A stretch of DNA of 47,732 nucleotides from a virus (taxonomy: Duplodnaviria; Heunggongvirae; Uroviricota; Caudoviricetes). Under the pieces are notes generated by a model, which saw only the letters and a program-made list of their open reading frames with translations, was not told the origin of the DNA and did not search any database. Positions within the stretch are counted from its first letter, which is position 1. Every line of letters starts with the position of its first letter. The position numbers and the translations under genes are program-made. The stretch is from IMG/VR virus record IMGVR_UViG_2562617057_000003; one strand, given 5' to 3'. Positions 32,153 through 43,392 of the stretch are shown one piece after another.

Positions 32153-32311
32153 GATAACGCCCTCTGGTTGATGGATTTAACTATCACCACCGTCAGGTTC
32201 CAATCATTGGGTGGTGAGACGTACAGGGTTGGAACTACCGGATCAACCAACCGGCGAGCCTTTCAGCTCCCCCATACGCCCCACCATTATTCAGATGTGC
32301 GTGTGCTTACG

Positions 32312-32338
32312 ACAATAAAAAACACGCTCGCGGCGTGT
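32312..32338 (-). terminator. tR'-like intrinsic terminator about 80 nt downstream of the late promoter
   Basis: Minus strand ACACGCCGCGAGCGTGT (6-bp stem) followed by TTTTTTATT. Confidence 0.6.
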
Positions 32339-32400
32339 GTCTGTCGCGGTTGAATATCCGGGGTTCCAATCCCGACGCCAGATTTTGCTGACGCGCGAGG

Positions 32401-32430
32401 AATATAGCCCCGGACAATGTATATGGTCAA
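32401..32430 (-). promoter_or_regulatory. Candidate late promoter pR' just downstream of Q
   Basis: Minus strand TTGACC - 18 nt - TATATT, starting 5 nt after the Q stop. Confidence 0.5.
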
Positions 32431-34701: not shown

Positions 34702-34857
34702 TTACTCCTCAGGTTCGTAAGCTGTGAAGACAGCGACCTCCGTCTGGCCGGTTCGGATTCGTACCTCGCAGAGGTCTTTCCTCGTTACCAGTGCCGTCAC
34801 AATGACGGTAATACAGATGACGATCAGGGCGACTAACATCGCCTTTTGCTGCTTCAT
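34702..34857 (-). CDS. hok: Hok/Gef-family type I toxin
   Basis: 51 aa MKQQKAMLVALIVICITVIVTALVTRKDLCEVRIRTGQTEVAVFTAYEPEE, near-identical to E. coli HokD/RelF-type toxins. Confidence 0.9.
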   Translation of the reverse strand: MKQQKAMLVALIVICITVIVTALVTRKDLCEVRIRTGQTEVAVFTAYEPEE

Positions 34858-35068
34858 AGCCTGCTTCTCCTTGCCTTTCGGCACGTAAGAGGCTAACCTA
34901 GATTTGCCGTTCATAGATTGAGCCTCAGATTAATGTTAAGCGTCTTGCCGGACGCGTAATGTTAACTGGGGCTTTTCTCTATCTGCCTTTTGGTGTTCAT
35001 GCCTGAGACAGATAGCCTCAAGCACCCGCTGCAATTCTACTTAACTCTCCTTTTCCCGCAAACCGTTT
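34858..35068 (-). promoter_or_regulatory. hok mRNA leader (mok-like upstream ATG; expected site of antisense Sok RNA)
   Basis: About 210-nt leader with an in-frame upstream ATG at 34914 and several hairpins, as in hok/sok loci; Sok promoter not pinpointed. Confidence 0.45.
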
Positions 35069-39019: not shown

Positions 39020-39445
39020 TCAATGCACCACCACGGCATTTCCCGCCGGACCACCACGATTCATCTGATTGAAACCAGCAATTACCACCGCGACAAGTTC
39101 ATCAGCGTCTCTCACCAATCGTTCATGCGTCTCCACCAGTTCCCGAAAATAAGCGGAACTGTGGCTGCGCATCCAGGCCACCAGCGGAGGTGGCATAGCC
39201 TTTTCGATCGCAGGTAACAACGCCTGAATTTTTTCAACCGCATCAGGAGTGTCTTTCTCCACCCAGCGGAATATTTTCTGTGTATTACGGGCCAGGGCTT
39301 CCGGATGGCTGTCGTCGTACAGTTCAGGGAACGTCATCCCCAGTTCGAAATAAGTCCGGGCTATTTCAGCTGCAGGAACTTTCTCACCATCAGGGTATGC
39401 CCAGGCATTCATCGCCATGCGGATGTGTTCATGCTTGATTTTCAT
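39020..39445 (-). CDS. YdaT-like protein (cII-position regulator)
   Basis: 141 aa starting MKIKHEHI...; RBS GGAGG 7 nt upstream; follows the cro-like gene. Confidence 0.6.
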   Translation of the reverse strand: MKIKHEHIRMAMNAWAYPDGEKVPAAEIARTYFELGMTFPELYDDSHPEALARNTQKIFRWVEKDTPDAVEKIQALLPAIEKAMPPPLVAWMRSHSSAYFRELVETHERLVRDADELVAVVIAGFNQMNRGGPAGNAVVVH

Positions 39446-39448
39446 GAA

Positions 39449-39730
39449 TCAACCTCCATCAGCCTTTTTGGTGTTAAGTTCATATTTGTGACGTGAAGGA
39501 GACGTGATTCCAGTGTATTCGGGCCATATAAGATCCCAGTCATTAGGTCTCAATTCTCGTCTTGTAACATGTCCTCCAGTTTCTGCTTCTATCATCAACG
39601 CACGAACAGGAGACACAGGTGAAGTTCCAGATGCCATTTGGGACAAGAAAGACGGAGACACACCAAGATTGGTCGCAAATTTTTTTGCTTCTCCAGTTTT
39701 TAATGATTTGATGAATTCCTTTAGCGTCAT
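39449..39730 (-). CDS. Cro-like / YdaS-like HTH regulator
   Basis: 93 aa, HTH KFATNLGVSPSFLSQMASGT; first gene of the rightward operon, divergent from the repressor. Confidence 0.72.
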   Translation of the reverse strand: MTLKEFIKSLKTGEAKKFATNLGVSPSFLSQMASGTSPVSPVRALMIEAETGGHVTRRELRPNDWDLIWPEYTGITSPSRHKYELNTKKADGG

Positions 39731-39765
39731 AATTTTTATCTCAGCACATTTAGAACAAGTAAAAG

Positions 39766-39826
39766 TTTATACGCAACTAAATAAACCAGTCAAGTATTTG
39801 CTTGTTTTGCGATTACTAAAGATAAT
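39766..39826. promoter_or_regulatory. Back-to-back divergent promoters: cro-type (minus) and repressor-type (plus, leaderless)
   Basis: Minus: TTGACT (39793-39788) - 16 nt - TATAAA (39771-39766). Plus: TTGCTT (39798-39803) - 17 nt - GATAAT (39821-39826), predicted start about 39833 = A of the repressor ATG. Confidence 0.55.
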
Positions 39827-39832
39827 GCATGT

Positions 39833-40204
39833 ATGGAAACAAAAGAGATTCGGCGTTTACGCCTCAAAGAGTGGTTCAAAGACAGGACTTTGCCGCCTAA
39901 AGAGAAAAGTTACTTATCTCAGTTAATGAGTGGTAAAGCTACGTTTGGCGAAAAGGCAGCTAGACGTATTGAGCAAACATATGGGATGCCTGGGGGGTAT
40001 CTTGATATGGAACCTGAAGATACAACAGAATCTCCGTCATCAAGATCTATGGCATTAACTCCTAACCAATTGGAATTGTTGCAAATATTTAGTGCTTTTC
40101 CTGACGCTGAGCAGCAGGAAATCATAAAAGAGCTAAGAAACAAAAAAGAGGCAATGGAAGATCTTGTTGCACGTTGGTTGGCGCGGCAAGGTCGCCGAGC
40201 CTGA
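39833..40204 (+). CDS. DicA-like prophage repressor (HTH_XRE)
   Basis: 123 aa; METKEIRRLRLKEW... HTH, and C-terminal TPNQLELLQIFSAFPDAEQQ as in E. coli DicA. Confidence 0.72.
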   Translation: METKEIRRLRLKEWFKDRTLPPKEKSYLSQLMSGKATFGEKAARRIEQTYGMPGGYLDMEPEDTTESPSSRSMALTPNQLELLQIFSAFPDAEQQEIIKELRNKKEAMEDLVARWLARQGRRA

Positions 40205-40234
40205 CGTGATACTTACTAAAACAAGAGATATCAG

Positions 40235-40696
40235 ATGGGCGTACTCGAAATCAGTGCTCTTAGAATTAAGATGCTTCTATTGGCAAAAGGCTGGAGCCAA
40301 GCAGAACTTGCGCGCAGAATTGGTATTGCTCAACAATCCGTCCAAAGGTGGGTTTGTGGCATCTCAAGCCCTACAGCAGCCAACCTAGATAAACTATCTG
40401 ATGTGACTGGATTTCCTCAGTATTGGTTTTTCTTACCATTAAATGAAGAAAATAAGGACAGGGCACAGGATATATTAAAAATAACCCCTACGCAAAAGGA
40501 ACTACTTCAAACATTTGAGGCATTTCCAGAGGAAGAGCAACAGCAAATGCTTAAAGATATGAAGGAGAAAAAAGAGACAATGGATCGTATAGTTGCAAAG
40601 TGGCTAGCAGCACAACAAAAAGTTCCTAGGCAGGATTACCAGTACTTACAAGACGAGGTTCACCATGAACACGGCCCTTTCACCAATGGTTTCTGA
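40235..40696 (+). CDS. paaR: Second DicA-like HTH regulator (PaaR-like regulator of the adjacent toxin-antitoxin pair)
   Basis: 153 aa; HTH IKMLLLAKGWSQAELARRIGIAQQSVQRW; C-terminal domain paralogous to the upstream repressor; 3' end overlaps the antitoxin gene. Confidence 0.65.
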   Translation: MGVLEISALRIKMLLLAKGWSQAELARRIGIAQQSVQRWVCGISSPTAANLDKLSDVTGFPQYWFFLPLNEENKDRAQDILKITPTQKELLQTFEAFPEEEQQQMLKDMKEKKETMDRIVAKWLAAQQKVPRQDYQYLQDEVHHEHGPFTNGF

Positions 40697-40856
40697 ATTT
40701 GAAACCGTCGAGCAAGAAAATAGTTATAACGAATGGCTGCGTGCAAAAGTGGCCGCAAGCCTTGCTGATCCACGTCCAGCCATTCCCCATGACGAAGTTG
40801 AACGCAGAATGGCTGAACGCTTTGCTAACATGCGCAAGGAACGGAGCAAACAGTAA
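40665..40856 (+). CDS. paaA: PaaA-type antitoxin (ParE-associated antitoxin)
   Basis: 63 aa MNTALSPMVSEFETVEQENSYNEWLRAKVAASLADPRPAIPHDEVERRMAERFANMRKERSKQ; stop abuts the toxin ATG (TAAATG). Confidence 0.72.
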   Translation: MNTALSPMVSEFETVEQENSYNEWLRAKVAASLADPRPAIPHDEVERRMAERFANMRKERSKQ

Positions 40857-41144
40857 ATGTTACCGGTTTTATGGCTCGAAAGCGCAGATGCCGACCTAGA
40901 TAATATAACCAGCTATATTGCACGTTTTGACATAGATGCGGCAGAACGTTTGTGGAAACGCTTAAGGACTTGCGTCCTGCCATTATCTGAACATCCGTAT
41001 TTATACCCGCCAAGCGACAGAGTGCCTGGTTTGCGTGAAATTGTAGCTCACCCCAATTACATCATTCTGTACCGCGTGACAATTTCAGGCATTGAAATTG
41101 TTAACGTAGTTCACGCCCGCCGACAGTTCCCTGTAACACCTTAA
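40857..41144 (+). CDS. parE: ParE/RelE-family toxin
   Basis: 95 aa MLPVLWLESADADLDNITSYIARFDIDAAERLWKRL...IEIVNVVHARRQFP, ParE-like. Confidence 0.82.
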   Translation: MLPVLWLESADADLDNITSYIARFDIDAAERLWKRLRTCVLPLSEHPYLYPPSDRVPGLREIVAHPNYIILYRVTISGIEIVNVVHARRQFPVTP

Positions 41145-41151
41145 TCCCCCT

Positions 41152-41177
41152 AAGCCCCTCTCAAGAGGGGTTATTCC
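41152..41177 (+). terminator. Hairpin terminator after parE
   Basis: CCCCTC-TCAA-GAGGGG hairpin followed by TTATT. Confidence 0.45.
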
Positions 41178-41407
41178 TGCCAAAGAGTTAAGTTAAATAT
41201 TGACTGTTTAGTTTATTTTTGCATAAACTAGTTTTACCAACCCACTCCGCCCCACAGAACGCAGGGCAATACTTCGAGTTACCAGGCAGTGGTCAGGGGT
41301 TAAGTAGCCAGCCCGAGGCGTAAGAACATGACGGCAGGGTTCAATCTTTAACTATGCAGCAGGTTTTTTGTTCCGCCACCCCGGCGTTAAGGGGAAATGA
41401 GGTCAGC

Positions 41408-42348: not shown

Positions 42349-42834
42349 AAGTGAATTTTGTGATGCGGTGAATGCGGCTCAGCGCACGCGGCACAGTTAA
42401 AAAGCGATTAGTTCCCCCGTATCGGGTGGTTATGGGTTTCCCTGTATCCGGCGTTAATTGTTAACTGGTTAACGTCACCTGGAGGCACCAGGCACCGCAT
42501 CAACAAAGTTCACTTCGGTGATGAAAGGAAAGAGAAAATGTTGAATGTAGCTATTGAAAACCAGAACGGGTGGAATTATAGTGCACCTGCACCTTATAAA
42601 ACGGGTGCCGGGCGTGGAAACCCGAACGTTACTCGAGCGCATAGCCGCGCTGAAGCGGTTTTTTTATGCGTAATGCACAGCTCCATTCAAATTATGGTGG
42701 GATGTGCAGGGCAGTCGCAAGACTGGCCGGGTTCTCGAGTGACCGGTATTTCCACCCCTGTACGTCTCACCACCCTTATGGTCGTGGAAAACCTCGGTGG
42801 TGAGTTAATTAACTTATCACTCGAGGATGCCATC

Positions 42835-43392
42835 ATGGCTACTATCCCTGCCCTTTCTCACCCTGACGTAACCATCGAAAATGGTCGCGCTGTCACTACG
42901 TCTATTGCGATCGCAGAGTTCTTTGGCAAGCGTCACGACAATGTGTTACGTGCCATCGCAAATACTGAATGCTCACCTGAATTTAACGCCCTCAATTTTG
43001 AGGACGTCACCTACACTGACGCCAAAGGCGAAAAACGCCCGATGTACCAAATCACCAAAAACGGCTTCGTTTTCCTGGTGATGGGATTCACTGGCAAAAA
43101 AGCCGCTGCATTTAAAGAAGCCTACATTGCTGAGTTCGATCGCATGGAGGCCGAACTGCGCCAGAATAACACCCCACCTGCTGACAAGATGATTCCGGGT
43201 GATGGTCGCACTCTGGTTGTTCACTTCGACAAATTCGGCAATGTCGAATTCACCGAAACCGTTCCTGATGGCGCACTGGTCTGTACCCTGGAGACTTTCC
43301 GGTTTTATCTGGAAAAACAGGGATGGACTCTTGTTAACCGGGGCGCAATTAAAAATATGACTGTGGAACAATTACTCAAAATTCATTGTTGA
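42835..43392 (+). CDS. Rha-family antirepressor (Ant)
   Basis: 185 aa from ATG 42835 (RBS GAGGA); N-terminal Rha-type ...AVTTSIAIAEFFGKRHDNVLRAIA...; C-terminal Ant-type domain shared with 31592-32152; the ORF-track upstream extension is probably non-coding leader. Confidence 0.8.
   Translation: MATIPALSHPDVTIENGRAVTTSIAIAEFFGKRHDNVLRAIANTECSPEFNALNFEDVTYTDAKGEKRPMYQITKNGFVFLVMGFTGKKAAAFKEAYIAEFDRMEAELRQNNTPPADKMIPGDGRTLVVHFDKFGNVEFTETVPDGALVCTLETFRFYLEKQGWTLVNRGAIKNMTVEQLLKIHC

What the first reader, a model, noticed from the sequence alone, without database searches (positions are those of the whole stretch)
39833..41144. Immunity region encodes a duplicated DicA-like regulator and a three-component PaaR-PaaA-ParE-type toxin-antitoxin module
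Two paralogous HTH regulators sharing a DicA-like C-terminal domain lie in tandem opposite the cro-like gene. The second overlaps a 63-aa antitoxin matching what I recall of PaaA2, followed by a ParE-family toxin. Wiring a TA module into the repressor operon could couple lysogen maintenance to addiction or to abortive infection. Which paralog is the true prophage repressor is unresolved.
Basis: partly seen in the sequence, partly recalled or inferred. Interest (0 to 1): 0.55.

Follow-up and report, generated by a model that had tools for sequence, protein, structure and literature searches.

The report
Prophage switch with extra repressor gene
This is the already published E. coli prophage "immunity region" in which the repressor gene is followed by a PaaA-ParE toxin-antitoxin pair, but in a rare four-gene form where a second repressor of a different type sits between the repressor and the antitoxin.

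Summary
At 39833-41144 (+) lie four intact genes. R1 (123 aa) is the PaaR2 orthologue: 87% identical to the solved PaaR2 N-terminal domain and 73% to O157:H7 PaaR2. R2 (153 aa) has an HTH_3 head. PaaA (63 aa) is 94% identical to PaaA2, and ParE (95 aa) is 90% identical to ParE2.

The surrounding circuit matches the published CP-933P immunity region (Jurenas 2021). That includes divergent ydaS/ydaT, a PRM placed for a leaderless start, PR and PL with identical hexamers, and an exact YdaT operator. The idea of a toxin-antitoxin pair wired into the repressor operon is therefore already known.

R1 is the CI-like repressor. R2 is not a duplicate of R1. The two share only a ~45-aa C-terminal domain. 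R2 belongs to a separate repressor family that, in about 100 E. coli genomes, is the sole regulator upstream of paaA-parE and has its own cro and operators.

The four-gene form is rare (17 of 5426 complete genomes) but has diversified under purifying selection (R2 dN/dS 0.13-0.24). No R2-type operators were found in the window. My best guess is that R2 is a captured repressor from a different immunity group that extends superinfection immunity. Mixed R1/R2 oligomers are the main rival. R2's 25-aa tail, which overlaps paaA, is a 1-nt-indel read-through and is probably not functional.

The parts
39020..39445 (-). ydaT (functional CII analogue), 141 aa
   Evidence: Pfam YdaT_toxin 3.2e-9. 79% identical to CP-933P-type YdaT of an O157:H7 genome. 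Its role follows PMC8630535 and PMC9986795.
39435..39452 (.). YdaT operator OM, TTGATTTTCATGAATCAA, spanning the ydaS/ydaT junction
   Evidence: Exact match to the published 5'-TTGATTN6AATCAA-3' site (PMC9986795). It is the only zero-mismatch hit in the window.
39449..39730 (-). ydaS (Cro analogue), 93 aa
   Evidence: Pfam YdaS_toxin 1.9e-9. 68% identical to O157 YdaS and 99% to that of STEC17-183.
39731..39832 (.). OR region. PR runs on the - strand: TTGACT 39793-39788, N18, TAAACT 39769-39764. PRM runs on the + strand: TTGCTT 39798-39803, 17-nt spacer, GATAAT 39821-39826, then 6 nt to the R1 ATG. PaaR2-type half-sites (TTTAG / CTAAA) are present.
   Evidence: Promoter scan and sequence. The PRM half, AAGTATTTGCTTGTTT...GATTACTAAAGATAAT, is conserved with O157 CP-933P, where a leaderless start was mapped (PMC8630535).
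39833..40204 (+). R1: PaaR2 orthologue and CI-analogue repressor, 123 aa (atypical HTH head plus a shared helical C-terminal domain)
   Evidence: PDB 7NKV/8C3K 'phage repressor CI' 1.5e-31, residues 1-63. 73% identical to O157:H7 WP_001169686. dN/dS 0.03-0.14.
40235..40696 (+). R2: extra HTH_3 repressor of the 'type-B' family, 153 aa. Residues 1-66 form the HTH head, 85-128 the shared C-terminal domain, and 129-153 a read-through tail.
   Evidence: Pfam HTH_3 2.7e-12. 62-68% identical to the sole cI-position regulators of L003 and L005. dN/dS 0.13-0.24. In the AF2 model the head and C-terminal domain are confident and the tail has pLDDT below 50. The tail arises from a 1-nt indel relative to the 131-aa form.
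40665..40856 (+). paaA antitoxin, 63 aa
   Evidence: Pfam PaaA2 1.1e-20. PDB 3ZBE 1.3e-34, 94% identity. dN/dS 0.01-0.15.
40857..41144 (+). parE toxin, 95 aa, full length
   Evidence: Pfam ParE_toxin 4.6e-16. PDB 5CW7 2.2e-55, 90% identity. dN/dS 0.03-0.08.
41157..41170 (+). terminator-like hairpin after parE
   Evidence: Consensus scan only; the T-run is weak.
41200..41229 (+). PL/OL: TTGACT-N18-TAAACT, the same hexamers as PR, with GTTTAG-type sites
   Evidence: Promoter scan. 30-nt inverted repeat with the PR region, 77% complementary (I1). Mirrors the PL/OL described for CP-933P.

Best explanation
The locus is the immunity region of a CP-933P-type lambdoid prophage.

What homology and sequence show:
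- R1 is the PaaR2 orthologue and acts as the CI analogue.
- R1 is read from a PRM whose -10 lies 6 nt before its ATG, so it is probably leaderless.
- R1 binds PaaR2-type operators at OR and OL.
- R1 opposes YdaS (the Cro analogue), and the locus is boosted by YdaT (the CII analogue).
- paaA-parE occupies the slot held by rexAB in lambda and makes the immunity region addictive.

What is inferred:
- The four genes form one PRM/PRE transcript, because no separate promoter is seen.
- R2 was captured by recombination with a relative of a different immunity type. That relative's own module was R2-paaA-parE. The left junction falls exactly after the R1 stop codon. The R2-paaA spacer and the 5' end of paaA are of the type-B kind.
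- R2 is kept by selection, but no cognate operators were found in its own prophage.
- R2 most likely serves as a second, heterotypic immunity repressor. It would silence incoming or co-resident phages of the ACAC-N7-GTGT (type-B/D) operator class, while R1 alone runs the resident switch.

The 25-aa tail of R2 that overlaps paaA is a frameshift read-through with no evident protein function.

The confidence given is for the whole statement. The identity of the locus and R1's role as the repressor are about 0.9. The specific heterotypic-immunity role of R2 is about 0.35.
For: Identity of the parts.

Circuit conservation with CP-933P: PR and PL have identical hexamers and form a 30-nt inverted repeat. 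The YdaT operator matches exactly. PRM geometry is conserved. The published functions are in PMC8630535 and PMC9986795.

R1 suffices for this immunity type: STEC17-183 has the same cro (99% aa), the same OR (3 mismatches) and the same R1 (95% aa), followed directly by paaA-parE.

R2 belongs to a different repressor family:
- In L003 and L005 a 132-aa homologue is the only regulator. It sits opposite an unrelated cro and ydaT.
- Its own operators, CACTTTnnAAGT / ACAC-N7-GTGT, are repeated in OR (3 sites) and OL (2 sites).
- The R2 recognition helix (IAQQSVQRW) is nearly the same as that of type-B (VAQQSVQKW).

No such operators in the window: 3 found against 3.1 expected, and 20 against 16.8 expected; none lies in a promoter region.

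Selection on R2: dN/dS is 0.13-0.24, with Fisher p from 1e-7 to 8e-6 against neutrality. The head is conserved. The module persists across loci with dS up to about 0.45 and next to different replication modules.

This R2 allele was seen only downstream of R1: 17 of 17 E. coli genomes and 9 metagenome contigs.

A type-B-like head also occurs fused behind a lambda-like (type-C) head in 240-246-aa repressors. Their OR carries type-C operators only.

Precedent: an acquired second repressor gives heterotypic immunity in mycobacteriophage Mcgavigan (PMC12700041).
Against: - R2's DNA specificity is inferred from relatives that are only 62-68% identical. Its real operators could differ and could be present unnoticed.
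- R2 has a weak or absent Shine-Dalgarno sequence.
- R2 has lost the family's conserved ...KGRRA C-terminus, and its C-terminal end varies (131, 132, 139 and 153 aa). This hints at relaxed constraint on at least part of the protein.
- No experiment or co-occurrence statistic supports heterotypic immunity. Type-B prophages are too rare (about 2% of genomes) for a test among 17 genomes.
- Operon structure and the leaderless start are inferred from sequence, not measured.
Confidence: 0.5

Rival explanations
1. R1 and R2 co-assemble through their homologous C-terminal domains into mixed oligomers (PaaR2 is an octamer in solution). R2 would then tune the resident switch. It could dilute R1 heads, change cooperativity or looping between OR and OL, or tether the complex to a second class of sites. 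This would resemble SinR-SlrR heteromers in Bacillus.
For: - The shared C-terminal domain is 56% identical over its last ~45 aa, and the family-invariant positions L90, F94, A96, F97, P98, K113 and W123 are kept in both proteins.
- Octamerisation of PaaR2 is reported in PMC8630535.
- Fused head-head-CTD proteins exist, showing that two heads on one oligomerisation domain is a viable design.
- The R2 allele is never found without R1.
Against: - R1's C-terminal domain is essentially the same in the 3-gene and 4-gene loci, so no co-adaptation is seen.
- The same domain is shared by all immunity types of this family. Promiscuous mixing would then be a general hazard rather than a design.
- No multimer model or interaction data could be produced here.
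Confidence: 0.2
2. R2 is the dedicated regulator of the toxin-antitoxin pair (the real 'PaaR' of this cassette), acting at a promoter or operator just upstream of paaA. R1 controls only the phage switch.
For: - R2-type regulators sit directly upstream of paaA-parE in about 100 E. coli genomes.
- The R2-paaA spacer is homologous to the type-B spacer.
- R2 overlaps paaA here.
Against: - No promoter-like site or type-B operator lies between R1 and paaA.
- In type-B loci the operators lie at OR and OL, not in front of paaA.
- In CP-933P the toxin-antitoxin pair is driven from PRM and PRE only.
- The overlap is not conserved: relatives have 29-35-nt gaps.
Confidence: 0.1
3. R2 is a functionless hitch-hiker left by an immunity-region recombination, and it is slowly decaying.
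For: - No cognate operators were found in the window.
- The ribosome-binding site is weak.
- The conserved C-terminal end is lost, and there are several frameshifted tail variants (131, 139 and 153 aa).
- The tail evolves faster than the body: 8/25 against 7/128 differences, p = 5e-4.
Against: - Residues 1-128 have dN/dS 0.13-0.24, significantly below 1.
- There are no internal stops in any of the seven E. coli loci examined or in the metagenome loci.
- In one degraded prophage (L011) it is R1, not R2, that is frameshifted.
Confidence: 0.1
4. One reading: a tandem duplication of one DicA-like regulator gave two redundant paralogues, the second being the PaaR of the three-component toxin-antitoxin system.
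For: The two genes are adjacent, on the same strand, and share a C-terminal domain.
Against: - The heads show no detectable similarity.
- R1's head is the PaaR2 head.
- R2 is 62-68% identical to an independent family but only 28% identical to R1.
- The junctions indicate a module fusion rather than a duplication.
Confidence: 0.03

Closest known systems
paaR2-paaA2-parE2 / ydaS-ydaT immunity region of cryptic prophage CP-933P (E. coli O157:H7; Hallez 2010; Jurenas 2021, PMC8630535)
   Same: Same gene families in the same order and orientation. PaaA is 94% identical, ParE 90%, PaaR2 73% (head 87%), YdaT 79% and YdaS 68%. The PRM geometry, the identical PR/PL hexamers and the YdaT operator are all shared.
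   Different: An extra 153-aa HTH_3 regulator lies between paaR and paaA. The operator half-sites differ in detail, so this is a different immunity allele. The window prophage appears to carry a full gene set, whereas CP-933P is cryptic.
Type-B modules: HTH_3+CTD regulator (132 aa)-paaA-parE, opposite a different cro/ydaT (e.g. E. coli 2015C-3121 and A19). Annotated only generically in RefSeq.
   Same: R2 is 62-68% identical to these regulators, with a nearly identical recognition helix. The R2-paaA spacer is homologous, and the paaA 5' end is the same (MNTAL).
   Different: There the regulator is the only one and sits next to its own operators (CACTTTnnAAGT). Here it is the second gene in the operon and those operators are absent.
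DicA / DicC of the Qin prophage
   Same: Same cI position. R2 aligns to the DicA profile over its full length, and R1 over the C-terminal domain only.
   Different: Both score far below the DicA family cut-off (56.6 and 32.8 bits against 101). The recognition helix is different.
lambda cI-rexA-rexB operon
   Same: A repressor gene followed by lysogen-expressed cargo in one PRM operon, with OR/OL looping logic.
   Different: No sequence similarity and no S24 autocleavage domain. The cargo is a ParE toxin-antitoxin pair rather than an exclusion system.
Acquired Bxb1-like second repressor of mycobacteriophage Mcgavigan (PMC12700041)
   Same: A temperate phage carries a horizontally acquired extra repressor that is not needed for its own lysogeny.
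   Different: That repressor is an unrelated protein in an unrelated phage group. Its heterotypic immunity was shown experimentally, whereas here it is only inferred.
SinR / SlrR / SinI of Bacillus subtilis (from general knowledge; SinR-SinI 1B0N was a weak fold match)
   Same: An HTH_3 head with a small helical multimerisation domain shared between paralogues that can form heteromers.
   Different: Not phage repressors. The fold match is weak and carried mainly by the HTH domain.

Membership tests
Three-component paaR-paaA-parE system (CP-933P type) | ParE-family toxin homologous to ParE2, full length | tested here: met
   Pfam PF05016 4.6e-16. 83/92 identical to PDB 5CW7 chain B with no truncation. 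dN/dS 0.03-0.08.
Three-component paaR-paaA-parE system (CP-933P type) | Small PaaA2-type antitoxin without a DNA-binding domain, immediately upstream of parE | tested here: met
   Pfam PF21217 1.1e-20. 59/63 identical to PDB 3ZBE. Its stop codon abuts the parE ATG.
Three-component paaR-paaA-parE system (CP-933P type) | A separate PaaR regulator encoded upstream in the same operon | tested here: met
   R1 is the PaaR2 orthologue. However, a second regulator lies between it and paaA, so this is a four-gene variant. Co-transcription is inferred from the absence of promoter-like sites and was not measured.
Three-component paaR-paaA-parE system (CP-933P type) | Embedded in a lambdoid immunity region: divergent ydaS-ydaT, shared OR/OL operators, YdaT site | tested here: met
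Three-component paaR-paaA-parE system (CP-933P type) | Leaderless paaR transcript | tested here: inconclusive
   The -10 GATAAT ends 6 nt before the ATG, as in CP-933P. The transcription start was not measured.
Three-component paaR-paaA-parE system (CP-933P type) | ParE toxicity neutralised by PaaA; addiction (plasmid stabilisation) | not testable with these tools
   Only sequence conservation and purifying selection are available.
DicA subfamily (NCBIfam NF007257) | Score at or above the curated cut-off of 101 bits | tested here: not met
   R2 scores 56.6 bits and R1 32.8 bits. They are DicA-like but not DicA.
LexA / lambda-CI type autocleavable repressors | C-terminal S24 peptidase domain | tested here: not met
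   No Peptidase_S24 hit for R1 or R2. The AF2 model of R2 shows a two-helix C-terminal domain.
Tandem gene duplication (paralogues from one ancestor gene in place) | Similarity along the whole length, with each copy closest to the other | tested here: not met
   Similarity is confined to residues 45-119 / 53-127. R2 is closer to the type-B regulators (62-68%) than to R1 (28%).
Known anti-phage defence systems (PADLOC) | A match of the toxin or antitoxin to a defence-system model | tested here: not met
   No hits for R1, PaaA or ParE. R2 gives only generic HTH matches.

The most novel reading that the evidence does not exclude
A temperate phage stacks two repressors in one lysogenic operon. They have different DNA-binding heads but the same oligomerisation domain. 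The lysogen would then be immune to two immunity groups at once, or would form mixed R1/R2 octamers with dual specificity. The conserved paaA-parE cassette would serve as the homology patch that lets such heads be shuffled between phages of different immunity types. The independent existence of fused head-head-CTD repressors would make dual-head immunity a recurrent strategy in enterobacterial lambdoid phages.
Probability: 0.3. Interest if true: 0.55.

Novelty: new variant of a known kind. Interest (0 to 1): 0.35.

Why it matters
The core of the finding, a ParE toxin-antitoxin pair inside a prophage repressor operon, is already published. The new element is the four-gene variant.

If R2 gives immunity against a second group of phages, or mixes with R1, it would show how phage immunity specificities are combined by swapping modules on a common oligomerisation domain. 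It would also offer a simple natural system to study cross-talk between repressors of co-resident prophages in pathogenic E. coli.

If R2 is a passenger, the locus is just another mosaic immunity region.

Tried and rejected
- **Type-B operator searches in the window.** Patterns ACACTTTN5GT, ACACN7GTGT and CACTTTNNAAGT gave counts at chance level, with none in a promoter region.
- **A separate promoter for R2 or paaA.** None was found. The only internal hit, at 40002-40031, is at background frequency.
- **Scan of one genome per species with R2.** There were no confirmed relatives. The allowed second scan was not used.
- **Fold search with the R2 model.** It returned only generic HTH matches, with E-values no better than 2e-3. 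The C-terminal domain has no informative solved relative.
- **PADLOC search.** It gave no defence-system assignment.
- **The Hallez 2010 paper.** It is not held in the library. PaaR1 of CP-933M therefore could not be compared directly, and the equation of L022/L023-type cassettes with paaR1-paaA1-parE1 remains a guess.
- **Co-occurrence of R2 prophages with type-B prophages.** This cannot be tested with 17 genomes and a background of about 2%.
- **Repeat search within 39400-41400.** Apart from the PR/PL inverted repeat it gave only short, chance-level pairs.
Full report
**1. What is there**

The + strand of 39833-41144 holds four tightly packed ORFs:
- R1, 39833-40204, 123 aa
- R2, 40235-40696, 153 aa
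- PaaA, 40665-40856, 63 aa
- ParE, 40857-41144, 95 aa

R2 overlaps paaA by 32 nt, and the paaA stop codon abuts the parE ATG.

Pfam matches are PaaA2 (1.1e-20), ParE_toxin (4.6e-16) and HTH_3 for R2 (2.7e-12). R1 has no Pfam hit.

Against solved structures:
- PaaA is 59/63 identical to PaaA2 (3ZBE, 1.3e-34).
- ParE is 83/92 identical to ParE2 (5CW7, 2.2e-55).
- R1 residues 1-63 match 7NKV/8C3K "phage repressor protein CI" at 1.5e-31. This is the N-terminal domain of PaaR2, since the O157:H7 protein starts MQKKEIRR.
- R2 matches only generic HTH proteins.

On the opposite strand lie a YdaS/Cro-like gene (39449-39730), a YdaT gene (39020-39445) and replication genes.

**2. The locus is the published CP-933P-type immunity region**

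Jurenas et al. 2021 (PMC8630535) established the following for CP-933P:
- PaaR2 is the functional CI analogue of cryptic prophage CP-933P.
- paaR2 is leaderless.
- YdaS and YdaT are the Cro and CII analogues.
- A PL-like promoter beyond parE2 has the same -35 and -10 elements as PR.
- PaaR2 octamerises.
- The locus is bistable and addictive.

The window reproduces this layout:
- PR (TTGACT-N18-TAAACT, 39793-39764, - strand) and PL (the same hexamers, 41200-41229, + strand) form a 30-nt inverted repeat.
- The PRM elements TTGCTT-17 nt-GATAAT end 6 nt before the R1 ATG. They are conserved with the O157 sequence.
- The YdaT operator TTGATTN6AATCAA (PMC9986795) occurs once without mismatch, at 39435-39452 on the ydaS/ydaT junction.

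Compared with an O157:H7 genome (L004), identities are R1 73%, PaaA 94%, ParE 90%, YdaT 79% and YdaS 68%.

**3. The two regulators are not duplicates**

R1 and R2 are similar only from residue ~45/53 onward: BLASTP 9e-17, 36% over 75 aa, and about 56% over the last 45 aa. Both match PHROG 5736. Both match the DicA profile well below its cut-off. Their heads show no detectable similarity.

R2 belongs to a widespread family of 130-135-aa proteins with an HTH_3 head and this C-terminal domain. The family occurs in E. coli, Salmonella, Klebsiella, Raoultella and Sodalis.

In E. coli complete genomes these proteins are normally the only regulator upstream of paaA-parE. They sit opposite an unrelated cro and ydaT (L003, L005). 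Their own operators, CACTTTnnAAGT / ACAC-N7-GTGT, are repeated three times in OR and twice in OL.

Further head types on the same C-terminal domain also precede paaA-parE-like pairs. One is a 166-aa lambda-like "type C" (L022). Another is a 132-aa "type D" with TACACA-N5-TGTGTA operators (L023).

The general design is therefore a variable head, a constant C-terminal domain, and a conserved toxin-antitoxin cassette.

**4. How the four-gene form arose and how common it is**

Among 5426 complete E. coli genomes:
- 17 carry R1-R2-paaA-parE.
- 2 carry the same R1 allele followed directly by paaA-parE (L002).
- About 590 carry the canonical O157-type paaR2.
- About 115 carry type-B-like regulators.

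Metagenome contigs that encode R2 variants all show the four-gene order.

The window and L002 are 97-99% identical through cro, OR and the R1 head. R2 is simply absent from L002.

The left junction falls immediately after the R1 stop codon. In the window the canonical 20-nt R1-paaA spacer (GTCATAAAACCGGAGGAAAC) is replaced by a 30-nt leader plus R2. The R2-paaA spacer and the paaA 5' end (MNTAL) are homologous to those of type-B loci.

This points to fusion of an R1-type switch with an R2-paaA-parE module from a phage of a different immunity type, not to a duplication.

**5. R2 is maintained, but its tail is not**

Nei-Gojobori dN/dS values among the four-gene loci (dS up to about 0.45-0.76) are:
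- R1: 0.03-0.14
- R2 residues 1-128: 0.13-0.24
- paaA: 0.01-0.15
- parE: 0.03-0.08

For R2 the departure from neutrality has Fisher p between 1e-7 and 8e-6.

The module sits beside different replication modules in different strains, so it has travelled as a unit.

The C-terminal end of R2 varies:
- 131 aa (...QQKVT*) in SCU-171 and 06-00048
- 132 aa with the family's KGHRA* end in GF60
- 139 aa in a metagenome variant
- 153 aa in the window

The 153-aa and 131-aa forms differ by a single nucleotide at the stop codon.

Between the window and L007 the tail has 8/25 amino-acid differences, against 7/128 in the body (p = 5e-4). The changes within the overlap are mostly synonymous in the paaA frame. 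AF2 models the head (helices 3-66) and a helix-turn-long-helix C-terminal domain (85-128) with confidence. It leaves residues 130-153 disordered, with pLDDT below 50.

In one degraded prophage (L011) R1 is frameshifted while R2 is intact.

**6. Which gene is the prophage repressor, and what R2 does**

R1 is the repressor of this prophage, for four reasons:
- It has the PaaR2 head.
- It is the gene served by PRM.
- OR and OL carry PaaR2-like half-sites.
- The identical cro-OR-R1 unit functions without R2 in L002.

For R2, type-B-like operators are not enriched anywhere in the window: 3 against 3.1 expected, 20 against 16.8, and 8 against 9.3. No promoter-like site separates R1 from R2 or paaA.

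R2's recognition helix (IAQQSVQRW) is almost that of the type-B repressors (VAQQSVQKW). By analogy with the 434 repressor's QQS...Q helix, which is my inference from general knowledge, it should read ACAC-type half-sites.

The explanation I favour, at about one chance in three, is that R2 is a lysogen-expressed second repressor that extends immunity to phages of the type-B/D operator class. A comparable acquired repressor does exactly this in mycobacteriophage Mcgavigan (PMC12700041).

The main rival is mixed R1/R2 oligomers through the shared C-terminal domain. This is supported only by domain homology, by PaaR2 octamerisation, and by natural fused proteins of 240-246 aa. Those proteins carry a type-C head, a type-B-like head and one C-terminal domain. 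They occupy the cI position, and their OR carries type-C operators only.

A dedicated regulator of the toxin-antitoxin pair, or a decaying passenger, is less likely for the reasons given under the rival explanations.

**7. Verdict**

The toxin-antitoxin pair in the repressor operon is established biology.

The extra repressor makes this a rare variant of a known system. It is undescribed as far as the literature searches could tell.

It is of moderate interest. It offers a testable case of stacked or mixed phage immunity, but nothing here is outside known kinds of system.

Noticed in passing
window 42589-42777 (+), inside ORF 42538-43392: An isrK sRNA (42589-42665) and a C4 antisense RNA (42690-42777) match Rfam above the gathering score. 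Both lie within the first ~100 codons of the long Rha/Ash-type ORF. This looks like a P1 immI-like antirepressor control module downstream of PL. The real Rha start is probably further downstream (around MATIPAL...). It is relevant because R1 and R2 lack an autocleavage domain, so induction may depend on an antirepressor.
   Followed up: partly
window 32207-32407 (-): A second isrK / C4 / a1b1-target set lies in the late-regulation (Q) region of the prophage.
   Followed up: no
window 34852-35027 (-): A full-length sok antitoxin RNA (Rfam RF01794, 112 bits) is present. The prophage therefore also carries a hok/sok-type type I toxin-antitoxin locus.
   Followed up: no
L012 4001-6360 (also L013, L014): Metagenome lambdoid immunity regions encode a 244-aa repressor in the cI position. 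It has two HTH heads in tandem (a lambda-like type-C head plus a type-B-like head) and one shared C-terminal domain. It is followed by a HipA_2 kinase and a DUF3037 protein where rexAB or paaA-parE would sit. This is a different cargo in the same slot.
   Followed up: partly
L022 2115-3114 and L023 2231-3136: Further immunity types (a 166-aa lambda-like head and a 132-aa HTH_3 head, each on the same C-terminal domain) precede a diverged PaaA/ParE pair. In that pair the PaaA C-terminal half and the ParE N-terminal half differ from PaaA2/ParE2. They may be the paaR1-paaA1-parE1 type, but this was not verified.
   Followed up: partly
L005 3366-3836: In strain A19 the paaA gene is a hybrid (PaaA2-like N-terminal half, other-type C-terminal half, non-ATG start) and parE is frameshifted. 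This shows that the cassette does decay in some prophages.
   Followed up: no
L011 2933-3304: In strain Z1323CEC0012 the R1 gene is frameshifted and the replication genes are deleted, while R2, paaA and parE remain intact.
   Followed up: partly
L021 (Escherichia phage Evi, LR597642) 1943-2810: A deposited phage genome carries the canonical paaR2-paaA2 pair. It also has an unannotated but intact parE2 reading frame directly after paaA2.
   Followed up: partly
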